Shown: in pieces, positions 32,851 through 43,311 of the stretch | How positions within the stretch are numbered: the stretch's first letter is position 1 | Layout of the letters: every line of letters starts with the position of its first letter | From: a virus | IMG/VR virus record: IMGVR_UViG_3300021091_000016 | Length of the DNA: 64,000 nucleotides | Direction: 5' to 3' (one strand) | Position numbers and translations under genes: made by a program | Notes under the pieces: generated by a model | Seen by the model: the letters and a program-made list of their open reading frames with translations, nothing else | The model's database searches: none | What the model was told of the DNA's origin: nothing

Positions 32851-32906
32851 ATGGTCTACAGGGTTGTCCCTGTACTGATGATGGGCCAATTGAGGCCCGA
32901 AACCAT
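32851..32906 (+). ncRNA. Hammerhead ribozyme HH1 (type III), predicted cut after C32856
   Basis: ATGGTC|TACAGGG-TTGT-CCCTGTA-CTGATGA-T-GGGCC-AATTGA-GGCCC-GAA-ACCAT: full core and three stems, with one extra U after A9. Confidence 0.9.
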
Positions 32907-32985
32907 TTAACTGTAATAGTGCTTTCTATTCAGCACTTAAATATGAATATAAGCAAAATGGGTCTAATCTCATCCAATCTATCAA

Positions 32986-33048
32986 TGACAAGATACATAG
33001 CGTTCGATGCTATGCTGATGAGACCTAATTCGGGGTCGAAATCTGTCA
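32986..33048 (+). ncRNA. Hammerhead ribozyme HH2 (type III), predicted cut after A32995
   Basis: TGACAAGATA|CATAGC-GTTCGAT-GCTATG-CTGATGA-GACC-TAATTCGG-GGTC-GAA-ATCTGTCA. Confidence 0.92.
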
Positions 33049-33161
33049 AGAGATATCTAAAAAACATTTCTCATCAATACTGGTGGATTAACCGCTTAAT
33101 GAATCAAGCTTAGAGCCTCAGCTGCTCTATATTTCTCTTGGTTTATTTTTAATCCTGTAGT

Positions 33162-33170
33162 GACGAGACG
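33162..33170 (+). promoter_or_regulatory. GACGAGACG motif (putative phage promoter)
   Basis: T-tract + CCTGTAGT + GACGAGACG, 28 nt before the ATG at 33198. Confidence 0.6.
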
Positions 33171-33197
33171 TCAAAGCCGACATAAAAGGAGATTCTT

Positions 33198-33971
33198 ATG
33201 TCAAATTGTAAACGAGGGATATTCCCTCAAGTCTGGCCAGCACAACTGGCTAATCCAGCTGGTTGCTGGAAAAGTGTTAAGGTGGAGCGTGCTCCATCAG
33301 TTTTACCAATGATTGTTTTAATGATTGTTGGTATCCTTGGTTTAATTTTGGGTTCATTCCTGGTGGAACCTAAAGCTACTCCTTTTTCAGGCTTGCAAAT
33401 CTGTAAGCCACAGCCTCAACCCATTCCTCAGCCTCAGCCTGAACCTGAACCTCAGATTGAGCCACAGCCTGAGCCTAAAGCCGAACCTAAAACCGAAGTT
33501 AAACCTAACCTAATTGATGCTGCTATCGCTGTAGCAAAAGCGCAAGAGTTTGTTTCCTCGTCTAACGAGGAGACTATGCGTTTGAGTTTGCAAACCGCAA
33601 TTGAACACTGGGAGTCTCTAGGGGAAACCCAAGATGACATCCAAAACCTAGTAGCGCTATATTACGTGGAAACACGTTATGGCGTGAAAGGGAAGATTTG
33701 CAGGGACGATACTGGCGCTTGTGGTCATTTCCAGATTGTCCCAAAGGTGTGGAAAAAGTTATTCGGCCAGCTCAAAGATGATATCGAGTCTCAAGCAGAA
33801 ATGCTTATCGATATTAGGGAACACCTAAAGACATATAGCGCTGATAGGTGGAAGGCTTATTATGCGCTATCATTCAAAGGTGCTCAAGCCGCTATCAAAA
33901 GCGGTAAATTGAGTGCCTATGAAGTAAGAAACAATAAAATTGAGAGCGAAATAAAGGCTCTCTTAAAATAA
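33198..33971 (+). CDS. Membrane-anchored lysozyme-like/lytic transglycosylase with PQ/PE linker
   Basis: TM helix, (PQ/PE)n linker, YVETRYG...GACGHFQI catalytic-type motifs. Confidence 0.65.
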   Translation: MSNCKRGIFPQVWPAQLANPAGCWKSVKVERAPSVLPMIVLMIVGILGLILGSFLVEPKATPFSGLQICKPQPQPIPQPQPEPEPQIEPQPEPKAEPKTEVKPNLIDAAIAVAKAQEFVSSSNEETMRLSLQTAIEHWESLGETQDDIQNLVALYYVETRYGVKGKICRDDTGACGHFQIVPKVWKKLFGQLKDDIESQAEMLIDIREHLKTYSADRWKAYYALSFKGAQAAIKSGKLSAYEVRNNKIESEIKALLK

Positions 33972-34012
33972 AATAACAATCATAAATACTAATACTAATT
34001 ATAATAACTAAA

Positions 34013-34070
34013 TCTTATATAGAGGGTTTCTCCCTCTACTGATGAGGCCTAATTGACGGCCGAAATAAGA
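34013..34070 (+). ncRNA. Hammerhead ribozyme HH3 (type III), predicted cut after A34019
   Basis: TCTTATA|TAGAGGG-TTTCT-CCCTCTA-CTGATGA-GGCC-TAATTGAC-GGCC-GAA-ATAAGA. Confidence 0.93.
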
Positions 34071-34183
34071 ACATCAGTTTGTATCATATCTTTTCTGTCA
34101 TTCTCGCTGTGAATAAATAAATAAGACATTAACAAGACTTTCATTAGTCTTTTTTTGTGCTTCATTTTTTAAACACCTGTAAT

Positions 34184-34192
34184 GACGAGACG
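34184..34192 (+). promoter_or_regulatory. GACGAGACG motif (putative phage promoter)
   Basis: T-tract + CCTGTAAT + GACGAGACG. Confidence 0.6.
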
Positions 34193-34197
34193 ATTTC

Positions 34198-34243
34198 AAC
34201 TCTAGCATGGCGCATTTTCTAGGTTCGATTCCTAGATAGAGTT
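34198..34243 (+). ncRNA. tRNA-like mini-element (acceptor-like stem and T arm, no anticodon arm)
   Basis: AACTCTA/TAGAGTT stem stacked on TCTAGG-TTCGATT-CCTAGA. Confidence 0.55.
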
Positions 34244-34360
34244 TTAGACCAATTATGGTCGAGCTGGGTTTAGTACAACCCTCCAAAAGTACTCTTAAGC
34301 TAATACAATTCCGTATAAAGCTTTCGTATTTTAACAATCCCAATGTAAGGAGAATGCATC

Positions 34361-34696
34361 ATGGGAAAGTTCAATTTCAAAATTAACAAAGCCATCAAGG
34401 CTGAGTTGATTACACGAGGGTTGTTACCCTTATTCGTTAAGGCCGTAAAAGGTCTGGTAAATCAAGGCGTCGTTGTCACTGACAACAGTAGCGTCTTGTT
34501 GGCTCTTATTTCCTTCATGAAGGATAATAAAGGGTTTTTCACAAGAAAGCAATTGCTAGTAGTGTTGCTAGCATTGTTCCAAAAAGCGAGCTTTCTCTGT
34601 AGGACCGGTTGGTCCGCAGGTGGAGAAAGCTTCCTCGTTGACACAGAGAATGGGACTCTCTATGTCAATCTAAGCCAAGTCCAATTCTACTTCTAG
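34361..34696 (+). CDS. Hypothetical protein
   Basis: AAGGAG RBS. Confidence 0.65.
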   Translation: MGKFNFKINKAIKAELITRGLLPLFVKAVKGLVNQGVVVTDNSSVLLALISFMKDNKGFFTRKQLLVVLLALFQKASFLCRTGWSAGGESFLVDTENGTLYVNLSQVQFYF

Positions 34697-34838
34697 TAGA
34701 GAAAGGTAGCTATCATGCTAATTGATTCGTCCTAAACGAATTTGCGTCTAAAGTGCAGGTGTAATTCCTGTTAATCCCAAACCCCCAAACCCCAACCCTC
34801 ACCCAATGGAGATTATTATGGATACGTCCTAAAATCCC

Positions 34839-41808: not shown

Positions 41809-41817
41809 GACGAGACG
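41809..41817 (+). promoter_or_regulatory. GACGAGACG motif
   Basis: Follows a T-tract; preceded by GTCGA. Confidence 0.55.
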
Positions 41818-41930
41818 GCAAAAATAGAGTCTACTTGTAAAAATCAGAATACCATCCGTGGAGCTTCACGTAAAAGAGCTAGACCTTGACTCGAGGTCGT
41901 CTTAACTGTTTTGCATCAAAGGAAACTATC

Positions 41931-42071
41931 ATGTTCTATTCAATAGAAATCGCAATCAAATATTTAAGCTGTCTCCCCTACAATGTTAACACTTCTGTTG
42001 ATGTTGTATTACTCGATAAAACCTTTTGCGTTAGTAAAAGATACGCAATCATAACTGTAAAGGAAGTCTAA
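41931..42071 (+). CDS. Small hypothetical protein (MFYSIE...)
   Basis: AAGGA RBS before the ATG at 41931. Confidence 0.5.
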   Translation: MFYSIEIAIKYLSCLPYNVNTSVDVVLLDKTFCVSKRYAIITVKEV

Positions 42072-42072
42072 A

Positions 42073-42219
42073 ATGAAGTTATTTACTGTATTATTAAATA
42101 ATGGTCAGGTAGAAAGTATTAAGTGCCGCGATCAACAAATGGTTGGCGGTATTATTTCGGAGCTCACAGGTGGTGAGTTATATGTAGTTGCCATTTTAAA
42201 TGAGCAACAATTGGGCTAA
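42073..42219 (+). CDS. Small hypothetical protein, 48 aa (MKLFTV...QQLG)
   Basis: Manual translation; AAGGA RBS; the stop codon forms part of HH5 stem I. Confidence 0.6.
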   Translation: MKLFTVLLNNGQVESIKCRDQQMVGGIISELTGGELYVVAILNEQQLG

Positions 42220-42268
42220 CTGATGAGTTCTTAAGAACGAAACCTAGGGTAAAACCGATGGTCTTAGT
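42215..42268 (+). ncRNA. Hammerhead ribozyme HH5 (type I), predicted cut after C42263
   Basis: GCTAA-CTGATGA-GTTC-TTAA-GAAC-GAAACC...GGTC|TTAGT. Confidence 0.9.
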
Positions 42269-42299
42269 ATAAACACAACACAACACAAGGAGATCAAAC

Positions 42300-42476
42300 A
42301 TGCTAAAGTTTGTTATCAGGCAATTAGAGGTACCAGATTGGGATCCTCTTAGGTGGGAAGTCGCGGTGTATAGGAATGGTGTCGAGGTGTATAATGATAT
42401 TGATACCAAGGAGAATCTCGTAGGTTTATTTGAACACTTTGTTCAGAAGGAGAATCAAAATGAGATTGGAGATTGA
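42300..42476 (+). CDS. Small hypothetical protein, 58 aa (MLKFVI...)
   Basis: Manual translation; AAGGAG RBS. Confidence 0.65.
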   Translation: MLKFVIRQLEVPDWDPLRWEVAVYRNGVEVYNDIDTKENLVGLFEHFVQKENQNEIGD

Positions 42477-42603
42477 AGTATGGGATAAGGAGCATTGGGA
42501 AGTTAAGGTTATGGATGAGAGTCAAGTCATGTATCATGACGTAATTTATTGGACTCAATTAGAGGGTTTAATTGCGGAATTGAAATTGAAATATAATTTT
42601 TGA
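42460..42603 (+). CDS. Small hypothetical protein, 47 aa (MRLEIE...)
   Basis: Manual translation; AAGGAG RBS. Confidence 0.65.
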   Translation: MRLEIEVWDKEHWEVKVMDESQVMYHDVIYWTQLEGLIAELKLKYNF

Positions 42604-42801
42604 TGGGGCGCCATTATTACGCGGTCTCTTATTGTCTGGTCTTACAATAAAAGGCTATGGTAGTCAAGTTTGATTACCAGAATAGACCTATATATTTTTT
42701 AATATCTTGGATCGGCATCCAAGCGAAATTATACGCCGTAGACAGTGAAAGGTCGCATTAAACCTTTCTTTGTTAACAAGAGCAAAAATTAATGCCGTCC
42801 A

Positions 42802-42880
42802 GCCAACTGATGAGGACGTTAAACTTAGACCCTTGAACAAGGTCGAAACCTAGGGGAAACCCGATGGTCTTGGTAGTTTA
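42802..42880 (+). ncRNA. Hammerhead ribozyme HH6 (type I, atypical stem II), predicted cut after C42869
   Basis: GCCAA-CTGATGA-[31-nt domain II]-GAAACC...GGTC|TTGGT; TAAACT can pair with the 3' AGTTTA. Confidence 0.8.
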
Positions 42881-42949
42881 ATAGTAGTATGTTGCTATTA
42901 TTGAATTGGTTTTTTAAAACCAATCTTTTTTTAAAACCCTTTCTTTTCC

Positions 42950-42973
42950 GACGAGACGTCACCTGACGAGACG
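42950..42973 (+). promoter_or_regulatory. Two GACGAGACG copies
   Basis: Copies at 42950 and 42965, upstream of the ATG at 43000. Confidence 0.6.
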
Positions 42974-42999
42974 TCGCTGTACAATAGGAGATTTTTAAT

Positions 43000-43254
43000 A
43001 TGCAAGAATTTTTAAGTTTTGTTGAGAGCCAAAAACAAGTAACAAGAAACAGAAACTCTACAAATAGCATTGTTGAGAATGTTGCCAAGCTACTTGAAGC
43101 AAACATTACACATCTATTAAAGGATCATCATGCTATATATCAAATTTCCCCTGATCCATTAGAATATGGAAAAGTATTTATTAATAAGACAGTTTATCAA
43201 ATTGTAGATACTGAAAATAGAAAAGCATTATTAATTTATAATTTATATAACTAG
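43000..43254 (+). CDS. Hypothetical protein bracketed by HH6 and HH7
   Basis: AGGAG RBS; the stop codon abuts HH7. Confidence 0.7.
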   Translation: MQEFLSFVESQKQVTRNRNSTNSIVENVAKLLEANITHLLKDHHAIYQISPDPLEYGKVFINKTVYQIVDTENRKALLIYNLYN

Positions 43255-43311
43255 CCAACTGATGAGACCTTTAGCATGGTCGAAACCTAGAAGTGATTCG
43301 ATGGTCTTGGT
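43254..43311 (+). ncRNA. Hammerhead ribozyme HH7 (type I), predicted cut after C43306
   Basis: GCCAA-CTGATGA-GACC-TTTAGCAT-GGTC-GAAACC...GGTC|TTGGT. Confidence 0.92.

What the first reader, a model, noticed from the sequence alone, without database searches (positions are those of the whole stretch)
32851..43311. Seven co-oriented hammerhead ribozymes punctuate the early region around a phage RNA polymerase
Seen: seven plus-strand elements, each with the complete CUGAUGA/GAAA core, an NUH site and three stems whose sequences differ between copies while pairing is kept. Three are type III (32851, 32986, 34013) and four are type I (41215, 42215, 42802, 43254). Five lie at or within ~40 nt of a stop codon; in HH5 and HH7 the stop codon overlaps stem I. 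I found none in the rest of the window. Known: hammerheads leave 5'-OH and 2',3'-cyclic phosphate ends, and T7 cuts its early polycistronic mRNA with host RNase III. Inference: this phage processes its early transcript into mono/oligocistronic mRNAs and small RNAs without host nucleases. The 5'-OH ends could resist 5'-monophosphate-dependent decay, and the cuts could stand in for terminators that the phage polymerase ignores.
Basis: partly seen in the sequence, partly recalled or inferred. Interest (0 to 1): 0.93.

Follow-up and report, generated by a model that had tools for sequence, protein, structure and literature searches.

The report
Hammerhead ribozymes punctuating phage early genes
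Seven self-cutting hammerhead RNAs really do sit between the early genes of this uncultured phage and are kept in its relatives, but ribozyme-punctuated phage operons have been known since 2011, so this is a well-supported new example whose purpose is still untested.

Summary
The window has exactly seven hammerhead motifs, all on the + strand between 32851 and 43311. Shuffled windows give 0.15 such motifs. None reaches an Rfam gathering score. HH6 is atypical: it has a 13-14 nt insertion at the A9/G10.1 junction.

Five metagenomic relatives carry co-oriented hammerheads around the same large gene. Stems are kept by compensatory changes. At one site the ribozyme type is swapped.

The 1843-aa gene is a QDE-1/crAss-type two-barrel RNA polymerase (confident model, Foldseek hits, invariant DxDGD).

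Transcript processing is the standard, untested hypothesis (Perreault 2011). The "stand in for terminators" idea does not fit, because the region has about eight copies of a conserved promoter-like motif (GACGAGACG), five of them just after terminator-like hairpins.

New details:
- Hammerheads bound gene modules that differ between relatives.
- Type III copies fall into a "leader" class and a "terminal" class.
- Most terminal copies have a conserved CAUCAG just downstream that can pair with the catalytic core.

Verdict: new member of a known kind. This scan has noted similar arrays in at least 57 other genomes.

The parts
32851..32906 (+). HH1, type III hammerhead, cut after C32856. Stem I 7 bp, stem II 5 bp, stem III 5 bp, one extra U after A9. 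'Leader' class: followed by a hairpin, an AU-rich UAAAUAUGAAUAUAAGC stretch and an AUG.
   Evidence: R1 scores 69.6 bits (it is part of the training set). Orthologue L021 1122-1177 has compensatory G-C to A-U changes in stems I and II.
32987..33047 (+). HH2, type III hammerhead, cut after A32995. Stem I 8 bp, stem II 5 bp, stem III 7 bp with one bulged A. 'Terminal' class, upstream of the terminator-like hairpin 33111-33129. UCUCAUCA at 33069-33076 is complementary to the core.
   Evidence: The positional orthologue L021 1964-2023 has entirely different stems but conserved downstream flank.
34013..34070 (+). HH3, type III hammerhead, cut after A34019. 'Terminal' class, with the anti-core CAUCAGU at 34072-34078 complementary to ACUGAUG at 34038-34044.
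   Evidence: (Hammerhead_3, 21.6 bits). Orthologues are L021 4487-4546 and G001 16104-16048.
35128..40659 (+). 1843-aa single-chain two-barrel (DPBB) RNA polymerase with catalytic GDNDGD at residues 768-773.
   Evidence: Pfam, PHROGs and PDB sequence searches are blank.
41215..41276 (+). HH4, type I hammerhead, cut after C41272. Stem II 8 bp. Starts 5 nt after the stop of the 152-aa gene that follows the polymerase.
   Evidence: Orthologues are L021 11484-11545 and G001 9362-9305, the latter with a compensated stem II. L025 and L026 have a type III hammerhead at this site.
42215..42268 (+). HH5, type I hammerhead, cut after C42263. The stop codon 42217-42219 lies in stem I. The next gene's SD and AUG (42300) follow 36 nt after the cut.
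   Evidence: (HH9, 19.1 bits). Relative to L021, HH5 plus the 58-aa gene 42300-42476 is an inserted module.
42802..42874 (+). HH6, atypical type I hammerhead, cut after C42869 if active. It has a 13-14 nt insertion at the A9/G10.1 junction, and upstream CGUCC (42796-42800) can pair with the inserted GGACG. It lies just before terminator-like hairpin 42904-42932.
   Evidence: Orthologues L021 12640-12698 and G001 7303-7243 have a normal 4-bp stem II with the homologous loop.
43254..43311 (+). HH7, type I hammerhead, cut after C43306. The stop codon 43252-43254 abuts stem I. SD at 43331 and AUG at 43344 follow 37 nt after the cut.
   Evidence: (RAGATH-1-hammerhead, 21.4 bits).
33162..33170 (+). 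Promoter-like motif GACGAGACG (extended consensus YTGTAATGACGAGACG). Further exact copies start at 34184, 35057, 35072, 35077, 41809, 42950, 42965 and 45721, all on the + strand.
   Evidence: 11 matches at one mismatch or fewer against 1.9 expected. Conserved at syntenic sites in L021, G001 and L026.
34072..34078 (+). Anti-core CAUCAGU downstream of HH3. Pairing with the CUGAUG core gives a fold predicted to be 1.3 kcal/mol more stable than the hammerhead fold.
   Evidence: C[AG]TCAG occurs within 20 nt downstream in 7 of 19 related type III hammerheads against 0.1 expected.

Best explanation
The seven elements are cis-acting hammerhead ribozymes: six canonical and one (HH6) structurally compromised. 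They are encoded in the intergenic spacers of the polymerase-containing gene block of an uncultured tailed phage.

Inferred mechanism: once transcribed, each folds and cuts its own transcript after H17, leaving a 2',3'-cyclic phosphate upstream and a 5'-OH downstream.

Inferred roles by position:
- The type I copies inside operons (HH4, HH5, HH7) separate neighbouring cistrons. The ribozyme stays as a structured 3' cap on the upstream mRNA. For HH5 and HH7 the downstream mRNA starts with a leader of about 37 nt that carries the SD; after HH4 the leader is 116 nt.
- The type III copies stay on the downstream fragment. 'Leader' copies (HH1-like) form a structured 5' end in front of a hairpin, an AU-rich leader and an AUG, much like the synthetic RiboJ insulator.
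- 'Terminal' copies (HH2, HH3) detach the finished mRNA from its terminator and are then, or alternatively, locked by a conserved anti-core.

Shown here: motif integrity, statistical excess, positional conservation and compensatory change in relatives, and the transcription-unit layout suggested by the motifs. Cleavage itself and every downstream consequence are inferred.
For: 1. There are seven complete motifs against 0.15 expected, all co-oriented with the genes.
2. L021 (polymerase 61% identical) has seven co-oriented hammerheads around the polymerase gene. G001 (35%) has six. L025, L026 and L027 (28-23% in the core) have three, four and two.
3. Stems change by compensation while the core stays invariant (structural alignments). 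On a structure-blind MAFFT alignment of 32 type I copies, 97.4% of cells pair, against 66.6% in shuffles and 24-45% when partners are slid. The covariation score is 0.785 against 0.163.
4. At the site after the polymerase-adjacent small gene, the window, L021 and G001 have a type I hammerhead while L025 and L026 have a type III one. This suggests the cut matters, not the scaffold.
5. HH5 and HH7 sit exactly between a stop codon and the next SD.
6. Clustered prophage hammerheads in the same layout cleaved during in vitro transcription, and one set cleaved in vivo (Perreault 2011, PMC3088659).
Against: None of the copies reaches an Rfam gathering score.

Stems I and III of the type I copies are only 3-5 bp, and their minimum-free-energy folds are not the hammerhead fold. 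HH6 has a disrupted A9/stem II junction. For HH2 and HH3 the extended transcript is predicted to prefer a fold that sequesters the core, so constitutive cleavage is not assured.

Four of the seven copies lie before terminators rather than between cistrons, which plain 'operon splitting' does not explain.

The pairing statistics are partly circular, because the copies were collected with a descriptor that requires paired stems.
Confidence: 0.65

Rival explanations
1. Some of the ribozymes are conditional switches rather than constitutive cutters. In the terminal type III class, a CAUCAG placed 2-8 nt after stem III competes for the CUGAUG core. Cleavage would then depend on transcription speed, pausing or termination, or on a factor that frees the core. 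HH6's insertion, which pairs with upstream CGUCC, would be another switch. This overlaps with the best explanation rather than excluding it.
For: C[AG]TCAG lies within 20 nt downstream in 7 of 19 related type III hammerheads against 0.1 expected. Those seven are six copies that precede a terminator and promoter, plus L025/L026 after the polymerase block. The core-sequestered fold is 1.3-3.8 kcal/mol more stable in w_HH3, L021_d, G001_c and G001_d, and 0.5 kcal/mol more stable in w_HH2. Perreault 2011 already raised regulated cleavage for phage hammerheads.
Against: The energy differences are small, and secondary-structure energies ignore hammerhead tertiary contacts. The anti-core could equally act after cleavage, blocking re-ligation or folding the 3' product. 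L021_b keeps the hammerhead fold as its minimum-energy structure despite having CAUCAG. No ligand or factor is indicated.
Confidence: 0.2
2. The hammerheads are mainly boundary elements of mobile or exchangeable gene cassettes. They travel with 'HH + gene' modules, or serve as short shared sequences for recombination, and processing of phage mRNA is secondary.
For: The synteny breaks against L021 fall at hammerheads. L021 has a 197-aa gene between the HH1 and HH2 orthologues where the window has 123 nt. L021 has an extra hammerhead plus two genes before the HH3 orthologue. The window has HH5 plus a 58-aa gene inserted between two adjacent L021 genes. HH6 and its orthologue are followed by different content. 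Perreault 2011 noted that the flanked genes are not constant.
Against: Positions such as HH3, HH4 and HH7 are kept down to 35% polymerase identity, with intact cores and compensated stems. That indicates selection on catalytic competence in the resident phage. No integrase, transposase or reverse transcriptase lies in the block. Paralogous hammerheads are too diverged (for example HH5 against L021_f, 75% over 60 nt) to be efficient recombination substrates.
Confidence: 0.12
3. The point of cleavage is to release small stable RNAs or circular RNAs. Candidates are the 139-nt HH1-HH2 fragment, the roughly 140-nt HH3-to-terminator fragment, and the roughly 65-nt HH6-to-terminator fragment. Their 5'-OH and 2',3'-cyclic phosphate ends could be joined by an RtcB-type ligase.
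For: The two type III hammerheads HH1 and HH2 lie 139 nt apart with no credible gene between them. The non-coding stretch from HH3 through the promoter is 86% identical to L021, more than the flanking coding DNA at 65-71%.
Against: In L021 and G001 the HH1-HH2 interval holds a 197-aa gene, so the short window fragment looks like a deletion remnant. Perreault 2011 looked for spliced or circular products and found none. No RtcB-like ligase gene was seen among the window proteins I scanned.
Confidence: 0.06
4. The motifs are chance matches or decayed, inactive relics.
For: All scores are below the Rfam gathering thresholds. HH6 is structurally compromised.
Against: Seven were observed against 0.15 expected, with strict strand bias, conservation in five relatives and compensatory changes.
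Confidence: 0.02

Closest known systems
Clustered hammerhead ribozymes flanking genes in prophages and phages (Perreault et al. 2011, PLoS Comput Biol, PMC3088659)
   Same: Several co-oriented hammerheads of mixed types flank single genes or short gene blocks whose identity varies. The proposed role is processing long phage transcripts into gene- or operon-length mRNAs.
   Different: Here they lie in a virulent-looking myovirus-type metagenomic genome, not beside an integrase. They surround a two-barrel RNA polymerase gene and are interleaved with a conserved promoter-like motif and terminators. Four of the seven lie at the 3' ends of units. The terminal copies carry a conserved anti-core.
Rfam hammerhead families: Hammerhead_3 (RF00008), Hammerhead_HH9 (RF02275), RAGATH-1-hammerhead (RF03152), clan CL00010
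   Same: They share the catalytic core, H17 and three-helix topology. The HH9 consensus shares the GAAACCUA...GGUC stem III seen in the four type I copies.
   Different: All scores (19-22 bits) are far below the gathering thresholds (48-56 bits). The type I copies share a UAG...(C)GAU loop motif closing a 3-bp stem III, often with an inserted GNRA-capped hairpin. An exact pattern for this variant found 14 other IMG/VR contigs.
RNase III processing of the phage T7 early polycistronic transcript (textbook knowledge, recalled from memory)
   Same: Site-specific cuts between cistrons of a phage early transcript leave structured RNA ends.
   Different: T7 relies on a host protein enzyme and leaves 5'-phosphate and 3'-OH ends. 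Here the RNA would cut itself and leave 5'-OH and 2',3'-cyclic phosphate ends.
RiboJ synthetic insulator (a type III hammerhead from sTRSV plus a hairpin placed before an RBS; Lou et al. 2012, recalled from memory)
   Same: The 'leader' class (HH1-like) has the same order of parts: type III hammerhead, hairpin, unstructured leader, start codon. Cleavage would standardise the 5' end whatever lies upstream.
   Different: This is a natural element, the leader is AU-rich without an SD, and the function is untested.
Single-chain two-barrel RNA polymerases: QDE-1, crAss-like phi14:2 gp66 (PDB 6vr4), phage P32 gp64 (PDB 8f72)
   Same: The predicted fold of residues 300-1200 matches them at Foldseek probability 1.00, and the DxDGD motif is invariant.
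   Different: There is no detectable sequence-profile similarity, and TM-scores are only about 0.3. About 25 homologues exist, all metagenomic. I know of no reported link between this polymerase class and ribozyme arrays; that rests on my own knowledge and I did not search the literature for it.

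Membership tests
Hammerhead ribozyme (Rfam clan CL00010) | Conserved core C3-U4-G5-A6-N7-G8-A9 ... G12-A13-A14 with the A15.1-U16.1 pair | tested here: met
   All seven have CUGAUGA, GAA and A15.1-U16.1. HH1 has an extra U after A9. 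HH6 has 13-14 extra nt there, or alternatively a stem II of only 3 bp.
Hammerhead ribozyme (Rfam clan CL00010) | Cleavage-site nucleotide H17 (not G) 3' of U16.1 | tested here: met
   It is C in HH1, HH4, HH5, HH6 and HH7, and A in HH2 and HH3.
Hammerhead ribozyme (Rfam clan CL00010) | Three helices radiating from the core, supported by covariation | tested here: met
   All stems pair in the structural alignments of 14 type III copies and 9 type I copies from the window, L021 and G001, and their sequences differ. Alignment A9 of 32 type I copies gives 97.4% paired against 66.6% shuffled and 24-45% slid. The copies were selected with a pairing descriptor, so part of this is by construction. Compensatory changes between orthologues are independent of that selection.
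Hammerhead ribozyme (Rfam clan CL00010) | Score at or above the gathering threshold of an Rfam hammerhead model | tested here: not met
   No hit at gathering in the window, L021 or G001. The best scores are 21.6 against 48.5, 19.1 against 52 and 21.4 against 56.3 bits. This reflects which sequences seeded the models and is not a defining biochemical feature.
Hammerhead ribozyme (Rfam clan CL00010) | Stem I / stem II tertiary contact needed for fast cleavage at physiological Mg2+ | tested here: inconclusive
   Loop II is conserved (AAUUGA-like) and loop I is U-rich in the type III copies. Most of the type I copies have an A-A mismatch in extended stem I. No 3D test was possible.
Hammerhead ribozyme (Rfam clan CL00010) | Site-specific self-cleavage giving 2',3'-cyclic phosphate and 5'-OH ends | not testable with these tools
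   This needs in vitro transcription or end-specific RNA sequencing.
Clustered phage/prophage hammerhead arrays (Perreault 2011) | Several co-oriented hammerheads flanking single genes or short blocks in phage DNA, with variable gene content | tested here: met
   Phage identity rests on terminase, portal, head and sheath hits. The layout and the variable modules are shown.
Two-barrel single-chain RNA polymerase (QDE-1 / crAss gp66 / YonO class) | Catalytic DxDGD loop | tested here: met
   GDNDGD at residues 768-773, with D, D, G and D invariant in 25 homologues down to 16% identity.
Two-barrel single-chain RNA polymerase (QDE-1 / crAss gp66 / YonO class) | Double-psi beta-barrel polymerase fold | tested here: met
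   The AlphaFold2 model has pLDDT 86.3 and pTM 0.85. Foldseek matches QDE-1 at E 2.7e-8, P32 gp64 at 1.3e-5 and phi14:2 RNAP 6vr4 at 5e-5, all at probability 1.00, with TM about 0.3.
Two-barrel single-chain RNA polymerase (QDE-1 / crAss gp66 / YonO class) | Match to a curated sequence family | tested here: not met
   Pfam, PHROGs and a PDB profile search found nothing.

The most novel reading that the evidence does not exclude
In this clade of phages with a two-barrel RNA polymerase, the hammerheads form a programmed two-class RNA 3'/5'-end system tied to the phage's own transcription machinery. 'Leader' ribozymes insulate SD-less genes. 'Terminal' ribozymes carrying a conserved CAUCAG anti-core act as kinetic cut-or-lock switches: the outcome depends on polymerase speed or termination, and it sets whether an mRNA keeps its terminator hairpin, and therefore how long it lasts. 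The ribozymes also mark the exchange points of gene modules.
Probability: 0.15. Interest if true: 0.65.

Novelty: new member of a known kind. Interest (0 to 1): 0.4.

Why it matters
What bacterial and phage hammerheads are for is still an open question (PMC6765202). This locus does not answer it, but it is a well-organised case for asking it. Six clean ribozymes lie in a block whose transcription units can be inferred from conserved promoter- and terminator-like motifs, and there are relatives at graded distances. The comparisons yield three testable regularities:
- the ribozyme type can be swapped at a fixed site;
- ribozymes bound exchangeable gene modules;
- one positional class carries a conserved sequence able to sequester the catalytic core.

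The locus also shows that Rfam thresholds miss whole lineages of phage hammerheads. It links such arrays to a poorly known family of phage two-barrel RNA polymerases and their likely promoter.

Tried and rejected
- Rfam at gathering thresholds on the window, L021 and G001 found no ribozyme. E-value mode gave only sub-threshold hammerhead hits, plus noise such as snoRNA and miRNA models.
- Megablast and tblastn against GenBank phages, and a protein-pattern scan of IMG/VR with the polymerase, found nothing. Relatives came instead from a DNA pattern scan and from the large protein databases.
- No whole genome is held for this window.
- MAFFT could not align the type III copies in register. It put gaps at the 5' end rather than in loop I, so the pair counts on the model-fitted alignment A5 understate pairing (76%). 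I used a descriptor-based structural alignment instead.
- A per-sequence shuffle test for anti-core complementarity that allowed G-U pairs was uninformative in this AT-rich DNA. A fixed-motif count against background was clear.
- The tRNA-like element after the promoter at 34184 is not called by ARAGORN or Rfam. RNAalifold on three sequences supports only the T-arm-like hairpin.
- I looked for a kink-turn or loop-E reading of the UAG/CGAU motif in stem III by eye and found no convincing match.
- Sigma-70-type promoter matches in the region are at chance level (38 against 38.6).

Full report

The + strand of the window has nine CTGATGA sites. Seven of them, all between 32875 and 43259, are followed by a hairpin and GAAA and are embedded in the two remaining helices. 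Neither of the two - strand sites is.

I ran a descriptor scan for type I and type III hammerheads. It required CUGANGA, an optional single inserted nucleotide, a stem II hairpin of at least 3 bp, GAAA, U16.1, a non-G H17, and stems I and III of at least 3-4 bp. It returns exactly seven elements, all on the + strand, and they cut after 32856, 32995, 34019, 41272, 42263, 42869 and 43306. First-order Markov shuffles of the window give 0.15 hits on average and at most 2.

Two covariance models built here, run with filters off, find no eighth copy. Rfam in E-value mode finds no other ribozyme class in the rest of the window. Rfam itself misses all seven at gathering thresholds. In E-value mode only three surface, at 19-22 bits against thresholds of 48-56.

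**2. Anatomy**

Structural alignments show an invariant core, H17 = C or A, and fully paired stems with different sequences.

The three type III copies have stem I of 7-8 bp, stem II of 4-5 bp with an AAUUGA-like loop, and stem III of 5-7 bp. HH1 has an extra U after A9, as do 8 of 14 related type III copies.

The four type I copies share a 3-bp stem III (ACC/GGU) closed by UAG...(C)GAU, into which a small hairpin, often GNRA-capped, is inserted. An exact pattern for this variant pulled 14 further IMG/VR contigs. Several of these carry their own arrays of co-oriented hammerheads just upstream of start codons.

HH6 is the weak member. Its orthologues read CUGAUGA, then a 4-bp stem with a CUUAAGCAA loop, then GAAA. 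The window copy has 13-14 extra nucleotides between A9 and the homologous GACC...GGUC stem, and an upstream CGUCC can pair with the inserted GGACG.

**3. Comparative support**

The 1843-aa gene has three close or moderate homologues and about 25 remote ones.

- Contig L021 (freshwater metagenome, polymerase 61% identical) is syntenic and has seven co-oriented hammerheads.
- IMG/VR contig G001 (35% identical) has six.
- L025, L026 and L027 (polymerase core 28-23% identical) have three, four and two.

Orthologous copies differ by compensatory changes. HH1 against L021_a has CAGGG/CCCUG changed to CAAGG/CCUUG and GGGCC/GGCCC changed to GAGCU/GGCUC. HH4 against G001_e has a wholly different but paired stem II.

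On a structure-blind MAFFT alignment of 32 type I copies, 97.4% of cells pair against 66.6% in shuffles and 24-45% when partners are slid. The covariation score is 0.785 against 0.163. These copies were gathered with a pairing descriptor, so the percentage is partly built in. The orthologue comparisons and the positional conservation are independent of that.

At the site after the small gene that follows the polymerase, the window, L021 and G001 have a type I ribozyme while L025 and L026 have a type III one.

**4. Context**

The window is a tailed phage, with terminase, portal, head and sheath hits on the minus strand and nucleotide-metabolism genes further right.

The large gene is a two-barrel RNA polymerase. 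The AlphaFold2 model of residues 300-1200 has pLDDT 86. Foldseek matches QDE-1 (E 3e-8), plant RDR2, phage P32 gp64, P74 gp62 and the crAss-like phi14:2 virion polymerase. DxDGD is invariant in all 25 homologues. Sequence-profile libraries are blank.

A + strand-only motif, YTGTAATGACGAGACG, occurs nine times exactly between 33162 and 45721 (11 matches at one mismatch or fewer against 1.9 expected). Five of the promoter sites (33162, 34184, 35057, 41809, 42950) lie just after a hairpin plus T-run, and the copies lie roughly 25-170 nt upstream of a start codon. It recurs at the syntenic places in L021, G001 and L026. I read it as a phage promoter, which is inference.

The block would then be at least six transcription units. 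Within these, HH4, HH5 and HH7 lie between cistrons. HH1/HH2, HH3 and HH6 lie between the last gene and the terminator.

**5. Modules**

DNA and protein comparison with L021 puts the synteny breaks at the ribozymes.

- L021 has a 197-aa gene between the orthologues of HH1 and HH2. The window keeps only the leader, its AUG and 123 nt.
- L021 has an additional hammerhead plus two genes before the HH3 orthologue.
- The window has HH5 plus a 58-aa gene inserted between two genes that are adjacent in L021.
- HH6 and its orthologue are followed by a terminator and promoters in the window, but by a 91-aa gene in L021.

**6. Two classes of type III copies**

'Leader' copies (HH1, L021_a, L021_c, G001_a, G001_b) are followed by a hairpin, a UAAAUAAAUAAGCUC-like stretch and an AUG without an SD.

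'Terminal' copies (HH2, HH3, L021_b, L021_d, G001_c, G001_d) precede a terminator and the next promoter. C[AG]TCAG lies within 20 nt downstream in 7 of 19 type III copies against 0.1 expected. Those seven are five of the six terminal copies (not HH2) plus L025 and L026_2. HH2 instead has UCUCAUCA, complementary to UGAUGAGA, about 24 nt downstream.

RNAfold predicts that, once this sequence is transcribed, a fold pairing it with the CUGAUG core is 0.5-3.8 kcal/mol more stable than the hammerhead fold in five of six cases examined. This could be a kinetic switch or a post-cleavage lock; I cannot tell which.

**7. Mechanism and comparison with what is known**

Co-transcriptional self-cleavage that segments and insulates phage transcripts is the best reading, at confidence about 0.65. 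This is exactly what Perreault et al. proposed in 2011 for clustered prophage hammerheads, some of which they showed to cleave in vitro and in vivo (PMC3088659). A 2019 review still lists the purpose as unresolved (PMC6765202). This scan has also noted similar arrays in at least 57 other genomes.

The benefit of 5'-OH ends is untested.

**8. Verdict**

This is a new member of a known kind, with some new and testable details: type swapping at a fixed site, module boundaries, the anti-core class, and the association with a two-barrel polymerase family and its putative promoter. Interest is about 0.4.

Noticed in passing
window 33162, 34184, 35057, 35072, 35077, 41809, 42950, 42965, 45721 (+): Promoter-like motif YTGTAATGACGAGACG, found only on the + strand, with five sites just after a hairpin plus T-run. 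It is in tandem before the polymerase gene and before gene 43000. It is conserved at syntenic sites in relatives down to 26% polymerase identity, so it is probably the cognate promoter of a phage-encoded polymerase.
   Followed up: partly
window 34198-34243 (+): A tRNA-like mini-element lies 6 nt after the promoter motif at 34184. It has a 7-bp acceptor-like stem (AACUCUA/UAGAGUU) and a T-arm-like hairpin with loop UUCGAUU. L021 has a compensatory change in the acceptor-like stem, and G001 keeps the T-arm-like hairpin. ARAGORN and Rfam do not call it. It may be an RNase P/Z-type processing signal.
   Followed up: partly
window 34112-34125 and 32941-32952; L021 and G001 downstream of every type III hammerhead: An AU-rich motif (A)AUAAAUAAAUAAG(CUC) lies 35-50 nt after the type III hammerheads. 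It places UAA in all three frames and also resembles a -10 box. In the leader class it directly precedes an AUG that has no SD.
   Followed up: no
window 34700-35056 (+): About 360 nt with no credible ORF lie between the 111-aa gene and the polymerase promoters. The stretch includes a C-rich tract and is 86% identical to L021, more conserved than the neighbouring coding DNA. It may be a non-coding RNA.
   Followed up: no
window 41296-41351 (+); L025 and L026 downstream of their post-polymerase hammerhead: After HH4 there is an 8-bp hairpin (CUAUAGUG...CACUAUAG). Its loop contains GCGGACUCCGCCUGAAGA, a sequence also conserved after the type III hammerheads of the distant relatives L025 and L026.
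   Followed up: no
window 42604-42801 (+): About 200 nt of non-coding sequence upstream of HH6 have no counterpart in L021. They include a hairpin followed by CGAAA (42708-42729) that looks like a hammerhead stem II remnant without a core.
   Followed up: no
window 49202-52867 (+): This stretch encodes an adenylosuccinate-synthetase homologue that PHROGs files with the PurZ-type enzymes (E 2e-82), an adenylosuccinate lyase, a 2OG-Fe(II) oxygenase and RNase H. tRNA-Met follows at 52896, then a weak second tRNA-like hit at 52979-53053 that ARAGORN does not call. The phage may replace adenine with 2-aminoadenine in its DNA; PurZ and PurA were not distinguished here.
   Followed up: partly
window 26237-30937 (-): A 1566-aa protein with a staphylococcal-nuclease domain (residues 1255-1363), 57% identical to its G001 homologue, lies next to the terminase block.
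   Followed up: no
L001 (IMGVR_UViG_3300031366_000001) 540-4550 (-); L004 8206-9723 (+); L013 2106-5526 (+): Unrelated viral contigs have 7, 5 and 5 co-oriented hammerheads, each 15-40 nt upstream of an SD and AUG. In L004 every copy shares the same stem I (GGUUAA/UUAACC).
   Followed up: partly
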